DNA of 64,000 nucleotides. Source: Candidatus Omnitrophota bacterium (GTDB lineage Bacteria; Omnitrophota; Gorgyraeia; Zapsychrales; Zapsychraceae). The notes beneath the pieces were generated by a model. The model saw only the letters and a program-made list of their open reading frames with translations. It did not search any database and was not told the DNA's origin. Location of the stretch: positions 192,068 to 256,067 of the forward strand of contig JACKFK010000004.1 of assembly GCA_020632515.1 (NCBI GenBank), read 5' to 3'. The position numbers and the translations under genes were made by a program. Positions 20,676 through 39,565 of the stretch are shown in pieces (within the stretch, counting starts at the first letter, position 1; every line of letters starts with the position of its first letter).

Positions 20676-20880
20676 GTCAATAAGTTGCTAGAACAAGTCA
20701 CAAAGTCACAAAGTCAGCTATCAGTCATCAGCGTTCAGCTATCAGAAAGTATAGTCTCCTGTCGCCAGGATACAGTGACCAGTGAAAAAGTTACAAAGCC
20801 ACAAAGTCGCAGATATTTTGTAATCTAGCAACTTTATGACACGGTGACTTTGCAACATTGTGACTTTATAACTTTTAAAT
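20676..20880 (+). repeat. intergenic repeat mosaic S1 (contains empty IS target site)
   Basis: Contains TAAGTTGCTAGAA (20681-20693), 2 x GTCACAAA (20697-20712) and 5 x CAGNNNT heptamers (20715-20749). Also contains hairpin GTCTCCTGTCGCCAGGATAC (20754-20773) and inverted GTGAC boxes up to the ATG. Confidence 0.9.
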
Positions 20881-22098
20881 ATGAATAAAACATTACAACA
20901 ACTTTATCAGTATGTGAAACAGGAAAATTTTTCCGGCTGGGATCCTTTTGACGGTTTAAACAGCGTTTATTTTAAGGAAAGCTTTTTTTATAAAAGTGAA
21001 TTTTTGCGTTTGTGCTGGATTCAACTTTTTAAACAGTCTCCTTTGAATTTACGTTCTGCCTTGAAGGTGCCGAAAAGTTTAAATCCTAAAGGGGCAGCGT
21101 TATTTCTTTCCGGATTAGTAAATTTGCATGAAGCCACGGCTGAACAACACTATTTAACAGACGCGCAAGAGCTATTTCAACAATTGATACGTTTGCAGCT
21201 TAACACGAAAACAGGTATTGGCTGGGGGTATAATTTTGATTGGCAGGCAAAGGCTTTTTTTGTGCCCGAAGGCACGGCTAATGTGGTGACAACAGTTTTT
21301 GTGGGGCAGGCATTGCTGGATTATTGGAAATGGGCGGATCAAAAGCAACGTGAGGAAATTAAAAATATCATTTTGGGTGTGGTTAATTTTATCTATAATG
21401 AAATGATCATTTGGCAAACAGAGAGCCAGTTATGTTTTGCCTATATACCGCAGAAAAAAACAGAAGTCCATAACGCGAATCTAATGACGGCTGCTTTTTT
21501 AGCGCGGGTGTTGACTTTTTCAGATATTAAAAAGAGTATCCCGCTTGATTTAAAGGCTCTTATAATTAAAGCGGTAGAATTTTCGACGGAAGATATTGAC
21601 GATGATGGGTATTGGCCGTATGGCACCATGGATCATCATCGGTGGATGGATAATTTTCATACAGCTTTTAATCTGCAGGCATTACTGCAAATAAAAGATT
21701 CTTTAAAATTAACAGATTATGATAATACGATTGAACAAGTCTATCATTATTACATTTGGGAACTTTTTTTAGAAGATAGCCGGCCTAAATATTATCATAA
21801 TAAATTATTTCCGGTGGATATTCACACCATCGCTGAAGCGATTATTTTGTTAACACAAGTATTGTCAAAAAAATATAACAATCGTGATGGAGAAAATATT
21901 TTTACCCAGCAGAATATCTCTCAATCTAAGGAATTGCTAAAGAATTTACAACAATATGTGGAAGATGAATTTTTTAATGAGCAGGGATATTTTTATTATC
22001 AGCAAGGTAAGTATTTAAAAAACAAAATTCCTTATATGCGCTGGAGCCAGGCGTGGATGTTTAAAGCGCTGGCGGTGCGAGAAAAGAGACAGGCTTAG
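20881..22098 (+). CDS. hypothetical protein, probably alpha/alpha-barrel glycan-modifying enzyme
   Basis: No catalytic motif recognised. Aromatic-rich helical repeats (GIGWGYNFDWQ, DDDGYWPYG, HRWMDNFHTAF) resemble (alpha/alpha)6 epimerase/lyase-like proteins found in polysaccharide loci. Confidence 0.35.
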   Translation: MNKTLQQLYQYVKQENFSGWDPFDGLNSVYFKESFFYKSEFLRLCWIQLFKQSPLNLRSALKVPKSLNPKGAALFLSGLVNLHEATAEQHYLTDAQELFQQLIRLQLNTKTGIGWGYNFDWQAKAFFVPEGTANVVTTVFVGQALLDYWKWADQKQREEIKNIILGVVNFIYNEMIIWQTESQLCFAYIPQKKTEVHNANLMTAAFLARVLTFSDIKKSIPLDLKALIIKAVEFSTEDIDDDGYWPYGTMDHHRWMDNFHTAFNLQALLQIKDSLKLTDYDNTIEQVYHYYIWELFLEDSRPKYYHNKLFPVDIHTIAEAIILLTQVLSKKYNNRDGENIFTQQNISQSKELLKNLQQYVEDEFFNEQGYFYYQQGKYLKNKIPYMRWSQAWMFKALAVREKRQA

Positions 22099-22299
22099 CT
22101 TTCAGATATCAGCTATCAGAAAGAAGTCGTAACAGCTGATGACTGACAGCTGCGAAGCCAATAACTGATATGGTGACTTTGTGGCTAGAGTATTAGATTT
22201 GTATTGATGTGATCTTGCGACTTTCTGAAAGCTGACAGCTGACAGCTAAGAATCGGATAACTAACACGGTGACCTGGCAACTTTGTAACTTTTATTATT
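22099..22299 (+). repeat. intergenic repeat mosaic S2
   Basis: CAGNNNT heptamers, a degenerate GTGAC-box unit (GGTGACTTTGTGGCTAGAGTATTAGATTTG...), CTGACAG inverse heptamers and AAGAATCGGATAACTAACACGGTGAC. Confidence 0.85.
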
Positions 22300-26250: not shown

Positions 26251-26483
26251 TAAGTCAGAAACAAGTCATAAGGTCACAATGTCACAATGTCACAATGTCA
26301 CAAAGAGGCTAAGTCACAAGGTCATAAAGCTTCCGTTTTCTTTTTTTCTGGTCACCAGCGACTGGAGACCGGAGACTGATACACGGTGGCTTTGTGACAA
26401 AAGTTTCAGATATGCGCTGGTGTGACGTTGTGACTTTTACACGGTGACTTGGTGACTATTAGCTATCAGTCATCAGCCTTCAG
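26251..26483 (+). repeat. intergenic repeat mosaic S4a (left of IS copy 1)
   Basis: GTGGTAA/GTGATAA heptamers start inside the wecB 3' end (26240-26260). Eight phased 8-mers occupy 26265-26328. These are followed by the AAGCTTCCGTTTTCTTTTTTTCTGGTCACCAGCGACTGGAGAC module, one GTGAC-box unit and CAGNNNT heptamers. Confidence 0.9.
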
Positions 26484-26568
26484 TTAAAATGAATAATTGT
26501 GTCCTCCCATCCTAGGAGTTAACCTAGGATGAGAAAGAATAATAACCCAAAAAAGGAGGACACAAGTT

Positions 26569-27600
26569 ATGATAACAATCGGCGTTGATTTTCACAAGCA
26601 AACATCAAGTTACCATGTTTTAGATGAAAACGGAAAATTTCTTAAACGTTGTAAACTAAAAAATAATGAAGAAAATATCCGTAAATTTATTCAAAGTTTT
26701 CAAGGCCCAAAACAAGTCGCTATGGAAGCCACTCGTAATTGGGGAATATTTTTCGAATGTATCAAAGATTTAGTTGACGATTTTCAATTAGGACATCCTA
26801 AGAAAATGAAAGCCATAACAGACTCTGAAACAAAGAACGACAAGCATGACGCTCAAATGATTGCCAAACTAACTTACAGTAAGTTTTTACCTAAGGCTCA
26901 TGTAAGTCATTTAGACAATCGCCAATTACGAAGCCTTTTACGCTATCGTCATTTTCTTGTTAAGCAACGCCGCGCGATTCGTCAACAAGTTCAAACGTTA
27001 ATTGATCGTAATCTCTGGCCGTGTGATCGTCCCAAAGCGTTCAAAGATATCTTTTGTAAAAAAGGCATTCAATGGTTAAAAAGCATTACATTACATGAAA
27101 GAGAACGATTCATTCTCGATCAAGCATTAGAATCTTTTGAAGACTTAAGTCGGCGCATTCTTCAAATCGAAGATTACGTTAATCAACAAACAGCTGAACT
27201 TAAAGGCTTAGAATATTTACGAACAACGCCCGGCTTTAAAACAAGCCGTGTTAACGCCTATATTGTCTTATTAGAAACCGATGACATTCATCGTTTTCGT
27301 AAAGCGAACGGCTTTGCTCATTACGCCGGCTTAGTTCCACGTGAACATTCTTCAGGTTCAAAACAACGTCACGGCCGATTAGTTAAAAATGCTAATATGC
27401 ATTTAAGAACCGCTTTTATTGAATCAACTTTAGCCGCTATTCGTTTAGACAAAGGTCTTAAAAGTTATTACAAGAAAGTTAAAAAATCCAGCGGATCTGG
27501 CTCCGCCATCATTGCCTGTGCCCGTAAATTATCTTATGCTGTTTATCATGTTTTAAAAGATCAACGCCCTTATCGGGCTGAATCACCTGTAGCCGCCTGA
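26569..27600 (+). CDS. IS110-family (DEDD / IS116-IS110-IS902) transposase
   Basis: N-terminal ITIGVDFHKQ (DEDD RuvC-like). C-terminal YAGLVPREHSSGSKQRHGRLVKNANMHLRTAF. RBS AAAGGAGG. Confidence 0.92.
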   Translation: MITIGVDFHKQTSSYHVLDENGKFLKRCKLKNNEENIRKFIQSFQGPKQVAMEATRNWGIFFECIKDLVDDFQLGHPKKMKAITDSETKNDKHDAQMIAKLTYSKFLPKAHVSHLDNRQLRSLLRYRHFLVKQRRAIRQQVQTLIDRNLWPCDRPKAFKDIFCKKGIQWLKSITLHERERFILDQALESFEDLSRRILQIEDYVNQQTAELKGLEYLRTTPGFKTSRVNAYIVLLETDDIHRFRKANGFAHYAGLVPREHSSGSKQRHGRLVKNANMHLRTAFIESTLAAIRLDKGLKSYYKKVKKSSGSGSAIIACARKLSYAVYHVLKDQRPYRAESPVAA

Positions 27601-27780
27601 TAGCTGCCGCCTGTTTGCTTTTGCAATCGAGGTCTCTCTCAGTTTCGCGGTACTTGGTGATCAATTTTATTTTGAGTGTCTTTTTGACGACTCCAATACT
27701 AGCTTATTCACATTTTTTTGTAGTGACTTTGCGTTCTTTAAACATTTTTTTCGAACTATTGACACAATTATTCATACTAG
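27601..27780 (+). ncRNA. candidate transposon-encoded guide RNA region (bridge/seek-RNA-like), copy 1
   Basis: A 180-nt non-coding tail lies 3' of the transposase, versus only 85 nt at the 5' end. Internal ATACTAGCT (27696-27704) equals the right junction (27774-27782). Internal GCGTTCTTTAAACAT (27731-27745) resembles the left junction GCNTTCAGTTAAAATG. Confidence 0.35.
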
Positions 27781-28077
27781 CTATCAGAAAGTATAGTCTC
27801 CTGTCGCCAGGATACAGTGACCAGTACTGGTTGCTGAAGACTTGAGACTAGCGACTGATACCAACAACTGACACGGTGACATTGTGACAAGAGTTTCAGA
27901 TATGCGCTGGTGTGACATTGTGACTTTTACACGGTGACATTGCAACATTGGTTAAACCATAAACAAACCTCGGAGGTTTGTTTACGGTTATGAATCGGAC
28001 AGCTAACACGGTGACATTGTGACAAAAGTTTCAGATTTGAGCTGTTGTGACTTTTAAACTGATAACGAAAGGTTTTC
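27781..28077 (+). repeat. intergenic repeat mosaic S4b (right of IS copy 1)
   Basis: Rest of the heptamer module, hairpin GTCTCCTGTCGCCAGGATAC, the CCAGTACTGG palindrome, two GTGAC-box units and the 31-nt palindrome. Confidence 0.9.
27957..27987 (+). repeat. 31-nt palindromic hairpin element, copy a
   Basis: CCATAAACAAACCTC-G-GAGGTTTGTTTACGG (one A/C mismatch). Confidence 0.85.
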
Positions 28078-28677: not shown

Positions 28678-28888
28678 GTGATAAGTGGTAAGTGGTAAGT
28701 GGTAAGTCTGAAACAAGTCACAAAGTCGCAAAGTCACAAGGTCACAAGGTCATCGTGTCAGCTATCAGCTTTCAGCGATCAGAAAAAAATATACTCTCCG
28801 GCCGCCAGGAGTCAGTGCTGTTGAGCAGCAACCGATTCAACTTCGTAAGTTGAACTAGGTTTGCTTTGATAAAATAAAGAAATTAATA
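28678..28888 (+). repeat. intergenic repeat mosaic S5
   Basis: The heptamer array GTGCTAA GTGATAA GTGGTAA x3 (28671-28705) includes the cysC stop. Then four 8-mers (28717-28748), CAGNNNT heptamers, a degenerate CCAGGAG hairpin and the CGATTCAACTT hairpin. Confidence 0.9.
28830..28862 (+). repeat. 33-nt hairpin motif, copy 1
   Basis: AACCGATTCAACTTCGTAAGTTGAACTAGGTTT (stem TCAACTT/AAGTTGA). Confidence 0.85.
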
Positions 28889-29771: not shown

Positions 29772-29856
29772 TTAAAATGAATAATTGTGTCCTCCCATCC
29801 TAGGAGTTAACCTAGGATGAGAAAGAATAATAACCCAAAAAAGGAGGACACAAGTT

Positions 29857-30888
29857 ATGATAACAATCGGCGTTGATTTTCACAAGCAAACATCAAGTTA
29901 CCATGTTTTAGATGAAAACGGAAAATTTCTTAAACGTTGTAAACTAAAAAATAATGAAGAAAATATCCGTAAATTTATTCAAAGTTTTCAAGGCCCAAAA
30001 CAAGTCGCTATGGAAGCCACTCGTAATTGGGGAATATTTTTCGAATGTATCAAAGATTTAGTTGACGATTTTCAATTAGGACATCCTAAGAAAATGAAAG
30101 CCATAACAGACTCTGAAACAAAGAACGACAAGCATGACGCTCAAATGATTGCCAAACTAACTTACAGTAAGTTTTTACCTAAGGCTCATGTAAGTCATTT
30201 AGACAATCGCCAATTACGAAGCCTTTTACGCTATCGTCATTTTCTTGTTAAGCAACGCCGCGCGATTCGTCAACAAGTTCAAACGTTAATTGATCGTAAT
30301 CTCTGGCCGTGTGATCGTCCCAAAGCGTTCAAAGATATCTTTTGTAAAAAAGGCATTCAATGGTTAAAAAGCATTACATTACATGAAAGAGAACGATTCA
30401 TTCTCGATCAAGCATTAGAATCTTTTGAAGACTTAAGTCGGCGCATTCTTCAAATCGAAGATTACGTTAATCAACAAACAGCTGAACTTAAAGGCTTAGA
30501 ATATTTACGAACAACGCCCGGCTTTAAAACAAGCCGTGTTAACGCCTATATTGTCTTATTAGAAACCGATGACATTCATCGTTTTCGTAAAGCGAACGGC
30601 TTTGCTCATTACGCCGGCTTAGTTCCACGTGAACATTCTTCAGGTTCAAAACAACGTCACGGCCGATTAGTTAAAAATGCTAATATGCATTTAAGAACCG
30701 CTTTTATTGAATCAACTTTAGCCGCTATTCGTTTAGACAAAGGTCTTAAAAGTTATTACAAGAAAGTTAAAAAATCCAGCGGATCTGGCTCCGCCATCAT
30801 TGCCTGTGCCCGTAAATTATCTTATGCTGTTTATCATGTTTTAAAAGATCAACGCCCTTATCGGGCTGAATCACCTGTAGCCGCCTGA
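29857..30888 (+). CDS. IS110-family transposase (identical 343-aa product)
   Basis: Same translation as 26569..27600. Confidence 0.92.
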   Translation: MITIGVDFHKQTSSYHVLDENGKFLKRCKLKNNEENIRKFIQSFQGPKQVAMEATRNWGIFFECIKDLVDDFQLGHPKKMKAITDSETKNDKHDAQMIAKLTYSKFLPKAHVSHLDNRQLRSLLRYRHFLVKQRRAIRQQVQTLIDRNLWPCDRPKAFKDIFCKKGIQWLKSITLHERERFILDQALESFEDLSRRILQIEDYVNQQTAELKGLEYLRTTPGFKTSRVNAYIVLLETDDIHRFRKANGFAHYAGLVPREHSSGSKQRHGRLVKNANMHLRTAFIESTLAAIRLDKGLKSYYKKVKKSSGSGSAIIACARKLSYAVYHVLKDQRPYRAESPVAA

Positions 30889-31068
30889 TAGCTGCCGCCT
30901 GTTTGCTTTTGCAATCGAGGTCTCTCTCAGTTTCGCGGTACTTGGTGATCAATTTTATTTTGAGTGTCTTTTTGACGACTCCAATACTAGCTTATTCACA
31001 TTTTTTTGTAGTGACTTTGCGTTCTTTAAACATTTTTTTCGAACTATTGACACAATTATTCATACTAG
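30889..31068 (+). ncRNA. candidate transposon-encoded guide RNA region, copy 2
   Basis: Identical to 27601-27780. Confidence 0.35.
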
Positions 31069-36737: not shown

Positions 36738-36850
36738 AAGTCGCAAAGTCACCGTGTCAGCTTTCAGCTATCAGTCTTCAGCGATCAGAAAACCACAAAC
36801 AAACCTCCGAGGTTTGTTTGTGGTTAAGAACCGAATAACTGACTTACTAT
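36738..36850 (+). repeat. intergenic repeat mosaic S10
   Basis: GTCGCAAAGTCAC, CAGNNNT heptamers, the 31-nt palindrome and TTAAGAACCGAATAACTGAC. Confidence 0.9.
36793..36823 (+). repeat. 31-nt palindromic hairpin element, copy c
   Basis: CCACAAACAAACCT-CCG-AGGTTTGTTTGTGG, a perfect 14-bp stem. Confidence 0.85.
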
Positions 36851-39233: not shown

Positions 39234-39565
39234 TATTTCAGTCTTCGGTCGCCAGGAGAGATCAAGTCGCAAAGTCGCAAAGTCACAAGGTCACAAGGTC
39301 ACAAGGTCACAAGGTCACAAAGTTTCCAGATTTCAAATACGGTGGCTTTGTGACTATCAGCCATCAGCGTTCAGCTATCAGCTATCAGAAGAAAAAAATC
39401 TGATCGCTGAAATCTGAAAGCTGACGACTGAAAGCTAAGAGCTGGATAAGTGACATGGTGACATTGTGACTTTTTCACGGTGACTTTGTGACTAGAGGAT
39501 TAGATTTGGATTGATGTGACTTTGTGACTTGTTGAAAGCTAGGAGTCGGATAACTGACTTTACCC
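39234..39565 (+). repeat. intergenic repeat mosaic S12
   Basis: Degenerate CCAGGAGAG hairpin and seven 8-mers (39266-39321). A heptamer array holds a second intact IS-target-like site (CATCAGCGTTCAG|CTATCAG, junction 39374/39375). An A-rich centre is followed by inverse heptamers and a GTGAC-box unit. Confidence 0.9.

What the first reader, a model, noticed from the sequence alone, without database searches (positions are those of the whole stretch)
27601..27780. 3' non-coding tail of the IS contains near-copies of both insertion junctions, making it a candidate bridge/seek-type guide RNA
Within the 180 nt after the transposase stop there are two junction-like segments.
- ATACTAGCT (27696-27704) is identical to the right junction, IS end plus flank (27774-27782). 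It continues as AGCTTATTCA versus flank AGCTATCAGA.
- GCGTTCTTTAAACAT (27731-27745) resembles the left junction GCNTTCAGTTAAAATG. GCGTTC is exactly the target-left sequence of the empty site at 20731-20736.

The segment between them contains a host-repeat-like GTGACTTTGCG. IS110-family recombinases are now known to use an element-encoded RNA with separate target- and donor-binding loops. That RNA lies 5' in the IS110 group and 3' in the IS1111 group. Target-like and end-like strings inside the non-coding tail are what such guides would look like. Because the target here is a multi-copy host repeat, the guide-target pair can be read directly from this window.
Basis: inference. Interest (0 to 1): 0.65.

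Follow-up and report, generated by a model that had tools for sequence, protein, structure and literature searches.

The report
IS1111-type bridge (seek) guide RNA
The DNA after this jumping gene's transposase gene encodes a guide RNA of the known bridge/seek type that tells the enzyme where to insert.

Summary
The window holds two identical 1295-bp IS1111-type elements (26484-27778 and 29772-31066). Both sit in a multi-copy host repeat, ..TTC|AG|CTATCAG.

I compared them with about 50 related elements from Omnitrophota metagenomes. This shows a conserved structured RNA at 27583-27734 with two guide modules.

- **Target module.** A 13-bp stem (27583-96 / 27647-60) encloses a right-target guide, CTGATAGCT (27597-605). 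This guide is the reverse complement of AG+CTATCAG and overlaps the stop codon. The stem also encloses a hairpin and a left-target guide, CTCTCAG (27636-42).
- **Donor module.** It holds ATTTTA (27664-69), a stem-loop (27674-93) and ATACTAG (27696-702). ATTTTA is complementary to the left IS end. ATACTAG equals the last 5 nt of the right end plus the core.

Both stems show compensatory changes. The guides track each element's own flanks and ends (0/5000 permutations).

GCGTTCTTTAAACAT is at chance level, lies in a non-conserved spacer, and is contradicted by the varied left flanks of the same IS elsewhere.

Verdict: a new member of a known kind. No experiment was possible.

The parts
26569..27600 (+). 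Transposase/recombinase ORF (343 aa), DEDD IS110/IS1111 type. Its last 18 nt double as the 5' part of the guide RNA.
   Evidence: ORF. (PF01548 7e-20, PF02371 2.6e-20). The GLVPREHSSG motif is read from the translation.
27583..27734 (+). Conserved structured RNA (bridge/seek RNA), copy 1. The well-conserved part runs to about 27711; the 3' end is inferred.
   Evidence: Model R1 gives 96.6 bits, E 9e-21. This copy was in the training alignment. Alignment A2 of 35 distinct family members.
27583..27596 (+). Stem 1, 5' strand (inside the CDS). Pairs with 27647-27660.
   Evidence: 13 pairs, 97.8% of cells paired, 8 pairs with changes on both sides. Also present in the MFE fold of W1 alone.
27597..27605 (+). 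Right-target guide, CTGATAGCT. It is the reverse complement of core AG + CTATCAG and would pair with the top strand. It contains the stop codon TGA at 27598-27600. G27606 also complements the invariant C left of the core.
   Evidence: Family permutation test: own-flank LCS 8.25 vs 4.79, 0/5000. The right flank is CTATCAG in all 10 other copies.
27609..27633 (+). Inner hairpin of the target-binding loop.
   Evidence: 34 of 35 members fold a strong hairpin here despite unrelated sequences (L028 only -4.7 kcal/mol). Most have a one-base bulge on the 3' strand.
27636..27642 (+). Left-target guide, CTCTCAG (same sense as the top strand; would pair with the bottom strand). Only TCAG matches this copy's own flank. 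CT.TCAG matches 6 of 7 at other sites.
   Evidence: relatives show 6-9 nt matches at this position, directly 5' of GTTTYGCGG. Permutation 5.18 vs 3.34, 0/5000. Left flanks.
27647..27660 (+). Stem 1, 3' strand (GCGGTACTTGGTGA).
27664..27669 (+). Right-donor guide, ATTTTA (reverse complement of TAAAAT, positions 2-7 of the left IS end).
   Evidence: The three elements whose left end is TTACAATG have ATTGTAA here.
27674..27693 (+). Inner stem-loop of the donor-binding module (GAGTGTC / GACGACTC).
   Evidence: 7 pairs, 91.8% paired, 6 with changes on both sides..
27696..27702 (+). Left-donor guide, ATACTAG (last 5 nt of the right IS end + core, same sense).
   Evidence: the guide equals the element's own right end + core in 34 of 35 members, across four classes (ATAGTGG, ATAGTAG, ATAGGAG, ATACTAG).
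27708..27726 (+). Possible 3' hairpin (TCAC...GTGA). It replaces the GGYC-ACAA-GRCC hairpin of most relatives. Weakly supported.
   Evidence: helix 3 only 61% paired in the family; W1 does not fit it. (the W1 fold gives a different local hairpin).
27727..27758 (+). No conserved role was found.
   Evidence: no target-likeness; chance-level match; left flanks vary. (host repeat).
27759..27780 (+). Right end. It contains the -35-like TTGACA (27759-64), the right subterminal inverted repeat (27761-75), the terminal ACT (27776-78) and core AG (27779-80).
   Evidence: The promoter geometry is read directly from the sequence.
26482..26503 (+). Left end. It contains core AG (26482-83), TTAAA, the -10-like TAAAAT (26485-90) and the left subterminal inverted repeat (26489-26503). 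Joined to the right end it gives TTGACA-17 nt-TAAAAT.
30871..31022 (+). Same RNA in the second, identical IS copy (IS body 29772-31066).
20724..20749 (+). Empty target site, GTCATCAGCGTTC AG CTATCAGAAAG. Further empty sites lie at 36758-36774 and 39365-39381.

Best explanation
The region 27583 to about 27727 encodes the guide RNA of an IS1111-group insertion sequence, the kind called bridge RNA or seekRNA.

**How the RNA is made (inferred).** It is made as the 3' part of the transposase transcript. That transcript is probably driven by the promoter TTGACA-17-TAAAAT, which forms only when the excised element circularises. The RNA is then probably processed.

**Target module (5').** A 13-bp stem closes a loop. 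[quoted passage not shown] **What this would do.** The RNA, bound to the DEDD/serine recombinase, would bring the circular IS junction and the host repeat together for exchange at the AG core. The same four guides would read the two integrated junctions for excision.

**Shown here:** the structure (by covariation), the guide-to-flank and guide-to-end correspondence across relatives, the absence of a target duplication, and the target multiplicity.

**Inferred only:** transcription, processing, protein binding and catalysis.
For: **Element type**
- Pfam DEDD_Tnp_IS110 + Transposase_20.
- 15-bp subterminal inverted repeats; a 2-nt core shared by both junctions in 42 of 42 relatives.
- Empty versus occupied sites show no duplication.

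**Structure**
- Stem 1 is 97.8% paired, with 8 of 13 pairs changed on both sides.
- The donor stem is 91.8% paired, with 6 of 7 pairs changed on both sides.
- 0 of 500 shuffles reach the observed covariation score. Slid controls give 29-48% paired against 90% observed.
- 34 of 35 members fold a strong inner hairpin from unrelated sequences.
- The W1 MFE fold reproduces stem 1 and the donor stem, z = -2.3.

**Guides**
- The right-target guide matches its own flank: mean longest match 8.25 vs 4.79, 0/5000 permutations.
- The left-target guide: 5.18 vs 3.34, 0/5000. Wrong-sense controls are null.
- The donor guide equals the element's own right end + core in 34 of 35 members, across 4 classes. 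The three TTACAATG elements carry ATTGTAA.
- Ten further copies of the identical IS all have right flank CTATCAG and ..TC AG on the left, as the guides predict.

**Agreement with published systems**
- The guide order (top-strand match 5' of bottom-strand match, overlapping at the insertion point) is as described for IS1111 seekRNAs (PMC11187229).
- Module sizes are 78 nt and about 145 nt, against 82 and 154 nt there.
- The strand rule (left guides pair with the bottom strand, right guides with the top strand, and the target guides and the left-donor guide include the core) is as for IS621 (PMC11208158, PMC11208160).
Against: - No expression, processing, binding or activity data exist for this element.
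- There is no match in Rfam 15, and the published bridge-RNA covariance models could not be run.
- The left-target guide of this element matches only 4 contiguous nt (TCAG) of its own flank.
- In the single-sequence fold the two target guides partly pair with each other.
- The right-donor guide does not reach the core, and its natural variation is small (two classes).
- The donor module has no covariation-supported closing helix. The 3' hairpin of the family is not conserved in this element, so the 3' end of the RNA is uncertain.
- W1 was part of the alignment used to build the model.
Confidence: 0.85

Rival explanations
1. One reading: the tail carries near-copies of the two integrated junctions. 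These are ATACTAGCT for the right junction and GCGTTCTTTAAACAT for the left junction, and they act as the guides.
For: - Both strings exist.
- The 9-mer is beyond chance (10/2000).
- IS621 has handshake nucleotides that make guide + neighbour look junction-like (PMC11208158).
Against: - The left string is at chance level (1053/2000).
- It lies in a spacer with no target-likeness in 28 relatives.
- Identical IS copies sit next to GCCTTC, GCATTC, CTTTC, GTGTC and CTATC.
- The post-core CT of the right string is a lineage motif that does not track the element's own right flank.
- Excision in IS621 uses the same four guides, so no junction-specific guide is needed (PMC13626964).
Confidence: 0.05
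2. The end-like and target-like strings act as DNA rather than RNA. They would be extra transposase-binding sites or a vestigial internal end left by an old nested insertion or duplication.
For: - ATACTAG repeats the right terminus.
- Many transposons carry subterminal protein-binding repeats (general knowledge).
- Sequence alone cannot tell DNA from RNA function.
Against: - Two helices flanking the strings show compensatory changes on both sides in many lineages. This is expected for an RNA and not for protein-binding DNA.
- The strings keep fixed positions in the loops.
- One strand of stem 1 is coding and still covaries with a non-coding partner 50-90 nt away.
- A vestigial end would decay rather than track four different end classes.
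Confidence: 0.05
3. The conserved structure is an mRNA 3' element (stability, terminator or translational control). The guide-like matches would be by-products of insertion-site preference set by the protein.
For: - The RNA overlaps the end of the ORF.
- No independent promoter is seen.
Against: - Guide segments change in step with flanks across about ten different target classes, in the correct sense only.
- A protein-determined preference would not write the target's complement into the transcript.
- No intrinsic terminator is found in the tail.
Confidence: 0.04

Closest known systems
seekRNA of IS1111-family elements (ISEc11, ISPa11, ISKpn4, ISPst6; Siddiquee et al. 2024, PMC11187229)
   Same: - It is encoded 3' of a 330-350-aa DEDD transposase, in an element with subterminal inverted repeats and no target duplication.
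- A segment complementary to the top strand lies 5' of a segment complementary to the bottom strand. Both overlap at the insertion point.
- The short module (78 nt here, 82 nt there) and the long form (about 145 nt here, 154 nt there) are of similar size.
- A promoter forms at the circle junction.
- Relatives are naturally retargeted by changes in the guide.
- The target is a repeated host sequence, as with ISPa11 in REP elements.
   Different: - The transposase is only about 23% identical to the enterobacterial IS1111 members found on plasmids.
- No RNA sequence homology could be tested.
- Here the 5' stem strand and the right-target guide lie inside the ORF. I could not check whether that holds for the characterised elements.
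- There is no experimental evidence here.
Bridge RNA of IS621 / IS110 group (Durrant et al. 2024, PMC11208160; Hiraizumi et al. 2024, PMC11208158)
   Same: - There are two modules, each with two guides separated by a stem-loop.
- Left guides pair with the bottom strand and right guides with the top strand.
- The core dinucleotide is read by the two target guides and the left-donor guide.
- The inner hairpins are bulged.
   Different: - The RNA lies 3' of the recombinase gene, not 5'.
- Guide order within each module is reversed (right guide first).
- The core is AG or GG instead of CT.
- The donor module is not a closed internal loop. It is an open or multi-branch region, as Durrant et al. noted for many IS1111 members.
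- No handshake-type extension could be shown.
Predicted IS1111-group bridge RNAs (ISCARN28, ISAzs32, ISPa11 in Durrant et al. 2024, Extended Data Fig. 10)
   Same: The RNA lies in the long right end, with loops complementary to target, donor and core. That paper predicted such an RNA in 93% of IS1111 elements in ISfinder.
   Different: This clade (Omnitrophota metagenomes) was not among the examples named in the text I read. Their covariance models were not available for a direct test.

Membership tests
IS1111 group of the IS110 family (the element) | DEDD (RuvC-like) N-terminal domain plus IS110-type C-terminal domain | tested here: met
   PF01548 at 7e-20 and PF02371 at 2.6e-20, both above the curated cut-offs.
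IS1111 group of the IS110 family (the element) | GL-P----S(t)G motif in the C-terminal domain; length 330-350 aa (PMC11187229) | tested here: met
   GLVPREHSSG is in the translation; the protein is 343 aa.
IS1111 group of the IS110 family (the element) | Subterminal inverted repeats of 7-17 bp with short terminal extensions | tested here: met
   A 15-bp perfect inverted repeat at 26489-26503 / 27761-27775, with extensions TTAAA and ACT.
IS1111 group of the IS110 family (the element) | The longer non-coding region lies downstream of tnp | tested here: met
   85 nt lie upstream of the ORF and 178 nt downstream.
IS1111 group of the IS110 family (the element) | Site-specific insertion without target-site duplication | tested here: met
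   Compare the empty site 20724-20749 with the occupied sites. Only the AG core is shared, and 12 copies sit at ..TC AG CTATCAG.
IS1111 group of the IS110 family (the element) | Circular intermediate whose junction forms a promoter | tested here: inconclusive
   Joining the ends in silico gives TTGACA-17 nt-TAAAAT (sequence). The circle itself was not observed.
Bridge RNA / seekRNA | Structured RNA encoded in the long non-coding end | tested here: met
   Covariation-supported helices and model R1. One caveat: the 5' 18 nt lie in the ORF.
Bridge RNA / seekRNA | Target loop with one guide complementary to the top strand and one to the bottom strand, overlapping at the core, and tracking each element's own target | tested here: met
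   Permutation tests give 0/5000 for both guides, and wrong-sense controls are null. The multi-site target of this IS agrees.
Bridge RNA / seekRNA | Donor loop with guides matching the joined IS ends | tested here: met
   The left-donor guide equals the element's own right end + core in 34 of 35 members (4 classes). The right-donor guide follows TTAAAAT versus TTACAAT. Natural variation is limited.
Bridge RNA / seekRNA | The RNA is expressed, binds the recombinase and is required for, and reprograms, recombination | not testable with these tools
   This needs RNA-seq, RNP purification and transposition assays.
Bridge RNA / seekRNA | Match to the published bridge-RNA covariance models | not testable with these tools
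   The models are not held here. Rfam 15 gives no relevant hit at E up to 10.

The most novel reading that the evidence does not exclude
In this clade the first third of the guide RNA (the 5' strand of the closing stem and the right-target guide) lies inside the transposase reading frame. Retargeting therefore rewrites the protein's C-terminal tail. In this element the guide for CTATCAG itself creates the stop codon (TGA TAG), which shortens the protein to 343 aa.

If this overlap is functional, a transcript could not be both translated to its end and folded as a guide. That would couple transposase synthesis to guide availability. It would also restrict which targets can evolve.

A weaker novel reading is that the host-repeat 11-mer GTGACTTTGCG in the spacer has a role in homing to the repeat arrays.
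Probability: 0.25. Interest if true: 0.45.

Novelty: new member of a known kind. Interest (0 to 1): 0.3.

Why it matters
- It gives a fully worked, sequence-level example of an IS1111-type bridge/seek RNA from an uncultivated phylum (Omnitrophota).
- About ten naturally retargeted relatives form a natural reprogramming series. From it one can read the guide rules: guide order, strand, core inclusion and guide lengths.
- For annotation, it explains why these elements insert into one host repeat.
- It also shows that such RNAs can begin inside the transposase ORF. Searches limited to the non-coding tail would therefore miss the target guide.
- It does not change the current understanding of the mechanism.

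Tried and rejected
- **Rfam 15**, permissive scan of 26300-28000. It returned only chance miRNA/snoRNA hits.
It was not better than shuffles, z = -1.0. The signal appears only with the correct 5' boundary and with comparative data.
- **Plasmid DNA search.** No match. The plasmid protein search gave at best 36% identity, so the RNA could not be compared with characterised IS1111 members.
- **Genome scan.** Only 5 loci. The metagenome scan gave 50.
- **Target-like strings in the 3' spacer**, tested family-wide against ±10 nt of flank in both senses. Null.
- **Handshake-type extension after the left-donor guide.** Null.
- **Closing helix for the donor module** (GTG/CAC). No covariation by inspection of A2.
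- **Distal flank test.** The first run was spoiled by a negative-index bug and was discarded. The corrected run gave a small same-sense excess with the left flank, but its positions are inconsistent and it is mostly T-runs. I read this as composition.
- **Internal promoter or terminator scan.** At chance level.
- **Correction.** The coordinates for guides B and C in my first notebook entry were wrong by about 10 nt. The second entry corrects them.

Full report
**What is there.**
- The finding lies in the 3' part of an insertion sequence that occurs twice, identically, in the window. The IS bodies are 26484-27778 and 29772-31066, each 1295 bp.
- The 343-aa ORF (26569-27600) carries the two Pfam domains of IS110-family DEDD transposases and the motif GLVPREHSSG.
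- The element has perfect 15-bp subterminal inverted repeats (26489-26503 / 27761-27775). It has 85 nt before the ORF and 178 nt after it.
- Comparison with an empty site (20724-20749, GTCATCAGCGTTC AG CTATCAGAAAG) shows no target duplication. A single AG is shared between flank and element at both junctions.
- These are the defining features of the IS1111 group (PMC11187229, PMC11208160).

**Check of the observation.**
- A 9-nt identity between the tail and the right junction was reached in 10 of 2000 shuffles.
- The 6-nt identity GCGTTC with a left junction was reached in 1053 of 2000 shuffles.
- So the first string needs an explanation and the second does not.

**Relatives.**
- The transposase has hundreds of relatives at 55-68% identity. 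They come almost entirely from metagenomes and Omnitrophota MAGs.
- I fetched 55 loci and defined the ends of 42 elements from their subterminal repeats.
- All have the left end TTA[A/C]AATG... and the right end ...CATNNN. A 2-nt core (GG or AG) is present on both sides in every case. They sit in about ten different targets.

**The conserved RNA.** The 3' regions share a conserved core. An alignment of 35 distinct sequences (A2) gives the following.
- A 13-bp closing stem, at 27583-27596 with 27647-27660 in this element. It is 97.8% paired, with changes on both sides in 8 pairs. Examples are GCCGC/GCGGC, ACTAC/GTAGC and ACTGC/GCAGC; here it reads GTAGCCGC/GCGGTAC.
- A 7-bp stem at 27674-80 / 27686-93. 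It is 91.8% paired, with 6 pairs changed on both sides.
- No shuffle reached the observed covariation score. Sliding the partners drops pairing from 90% to 29-48%.
- Between the first stem's strands, 34 of 35 members fold a strong hairpin from unrelated sequence, mostly with a one-base bulge.
- The MFE fold of this element alone reproduces stem 1 and the second stem, z = -2.3.
- The 5' strand of stem 1 lies in the ORF.
- A model built from A2 (R1) finds exactly the two copies in the window and nothing else convincing.

**The guides.** Four loop segments follow each element's own DNA.
1. *Right-target guide.* Directly 3' of the stem's 5' strand is a 9-10-nt segment that is the reverse complement of core + right flank. 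Examples are CTGTCATTCC for GG AATGACA, CTACCATTCT for AG AATGGTAG and CAATGGGGCT for AG CCCCATCG. Here it is CTGATAGCT (27597-27605) for AG CTATCAG.
2. *Left-target guide.* Directly 5' of the conserved GTTTYGCGG is a segment identical to left flank + core. Examples are ACTCCTCAG, CTTGTCTGG and TCGCTGG. Here it is CTCTCAG (27636-27642).
3. *Right-donor guide.* ATTTTA (27664-69) is complementary to the left IS end. It becomes ATTGTAA in the three elements whose left end is TTACAATG.
4. *Left-donor guide.* ATACTAG (27696-27702) equals the last 5 nt of the right end plus the core. This holds in 34 of 35 members across four classes.

Permuting targets among elements never reached the observed matching for the two target guides (0/5000 each). 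Wrong-sense controls were null.

**How the architecture compares with published systems.**
- The strand rule is that of IS621: left guides pair with the bottom strand and right guides with the top strand. The two target guides and the left-donor guide include the core; the right-donor guide does not reach it (PMC11208158, PMC11208160).
- The guide order is that reported for IS1111 seekRNAs: the top-strand match lies 5' of the bottom-strand match, and they overlap at the insertion point (PMC11187229).
- The 78-nt first module and the roughly 145-nt whole are close to the 82-nt and 154-nt species found there.

**The same IS elsewhere.**
- The identical protein occurs on 19 metagenome contigs. 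Ten were read, and their tails are identical to the window's.
- Their right flank is always CTATCAG followed by A or T.
- Their left flanks are ..CCTTC, ..CATTC, ..CTTTC, ..GTGTC and ..CTATC before AG.
- This fits a long right-target guide and a short left-target guide (CT.TCAG). It rules out a requirement for GCGTTC.
- The window has three empty sites (20729, 36758, 39365).

- ATACTAG is the left-donor guide. The next two bases, CT, are part of AGCTT, a motif shared with L010, L012, L027 and L047, three of which have unrelated right flanks.
- Post-core bases do not follow the element's own right flank in either core class.
- GCGTTCTTTAAACAT lies in the spacer between the RNA core and the right inverted repeat. 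That spacer varies from about 24 to 98 nt. It shows no excess similarity to the element's own target in either sense.
- Work on IS621 excision shows that the same four guides read the integrated junctions, so no junction-specific guide is expected (PMC13626964).

**Expression (inferred).**
- No convincing internal promoter or terminator is present.
- Joining the ends gives TTGACA (27759-64), a 17-nt spacer and TAAAAT (26485-90). This is the junction promoter known for these families (PMC11187229, PMC11208158).
- The RNA is probably processed from the transposase transcript, as proposed for ISEc11.

**Limits.**
- Nothing here shows that the RNA exists or acts.
- The left-target guide matches only TCAG of this copy's own flank.
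- The right-donor guide stops short of the core.
- The donor module lacks a supported closing helix, and the family's 3' hairpin is not kept in this element. The 3' end is therefore uncertain.
- Rfam has no such family, and the published models were unavailable.

**Verdict.**
- This is a real feature and an ordinary one of its kind: a new member of the IS1111 bridge/seek RNA class.
It was correct in detail for one guide and wrong for the other string and for the boundaries.
- The most unusual point is the overlap of the RNA's first 18 nt with the ORF. In this element the guide itself supplies the stop codon.

Noticed in passing
27583-27606 (and L001-L054, -46 to -5 nt from each stop codon): In all 35 family members the 5' strand of stem 1 and the right-target guide lie inside the transposase ORF. 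The consensus C-terminus PPAAxCH is GCC GCC TGT CAT, which is the stem plus the guide for the common target. Here the guide for CTATCAG reads TGA TAG in frame. The guide is therefore the stop codon, and the protein is 343 aa against 348-360 in relatives.
   Followed up: partly
27723-27733: GTGACTTTGCG in the IS spacer is an exact 11-mer of a host intergenic repeat. It has four exact minus-strand copies, starting at 28727, 32182, 36742 and 39276. The 10-mer has 27 near-copies in the window against 3 expected. It is absent from related elements, and its meaning is unknown.
   Followed up: partly
20700-20760, 22090-22130, 28740-28780, 36740-36790, 39350-39400: The host target is part of a tandem heptamer array of the form NNNTCAG (e.g. 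AGCTATCAG TCATCAG CGTTCAG CTATCAG). It lies next to arrays of GTGAC-type octamers. Empty sites are at 20729, 36758 and 39365, with partial sites at 22111 and 28760.
   Followed up: partly
L001, L003, L009, L014, L015, L020, L035, L038 and others (flanks): Most related elements sit in one shared target, gattcccgcttYcgcg GG aatgaca. It is apparently a repeat of Omnitrophota genomes with a palindromic left half, reminiscent of REP-type targets.
   Followed up: no
L002, about 11-20 nt left of the IS: The left flank carries an LE-like GGTTTAAAATG just upstream of the real left end. The element's 3' spacer contains the two flank blocks TTTTTTAAC and TGGGTC joined together. This may be a remnant of an earlier event.
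   Followed up: no
3' spacers vs left flanks -60 to -9 in 23 loci: There is a small same-sense excess of shared words between each element's 3' spacer and its distal left flank (mean 6.17 vs 5.44, 1/3000 permutations). The positions are inconsistent and the matches are mostly T-runs, so this is probably shared base composition.
   Followed up: partly
L054 (right flank) and L028 (left flank): Some copies sit in flanks that do not match their guides. The L054 guide is TGTCATTCC but its flank is GGACTGACG. The L028 left flank is unrelated to its guide. These may be off-target insertions or flank changes after insertion.
   Followed up: no
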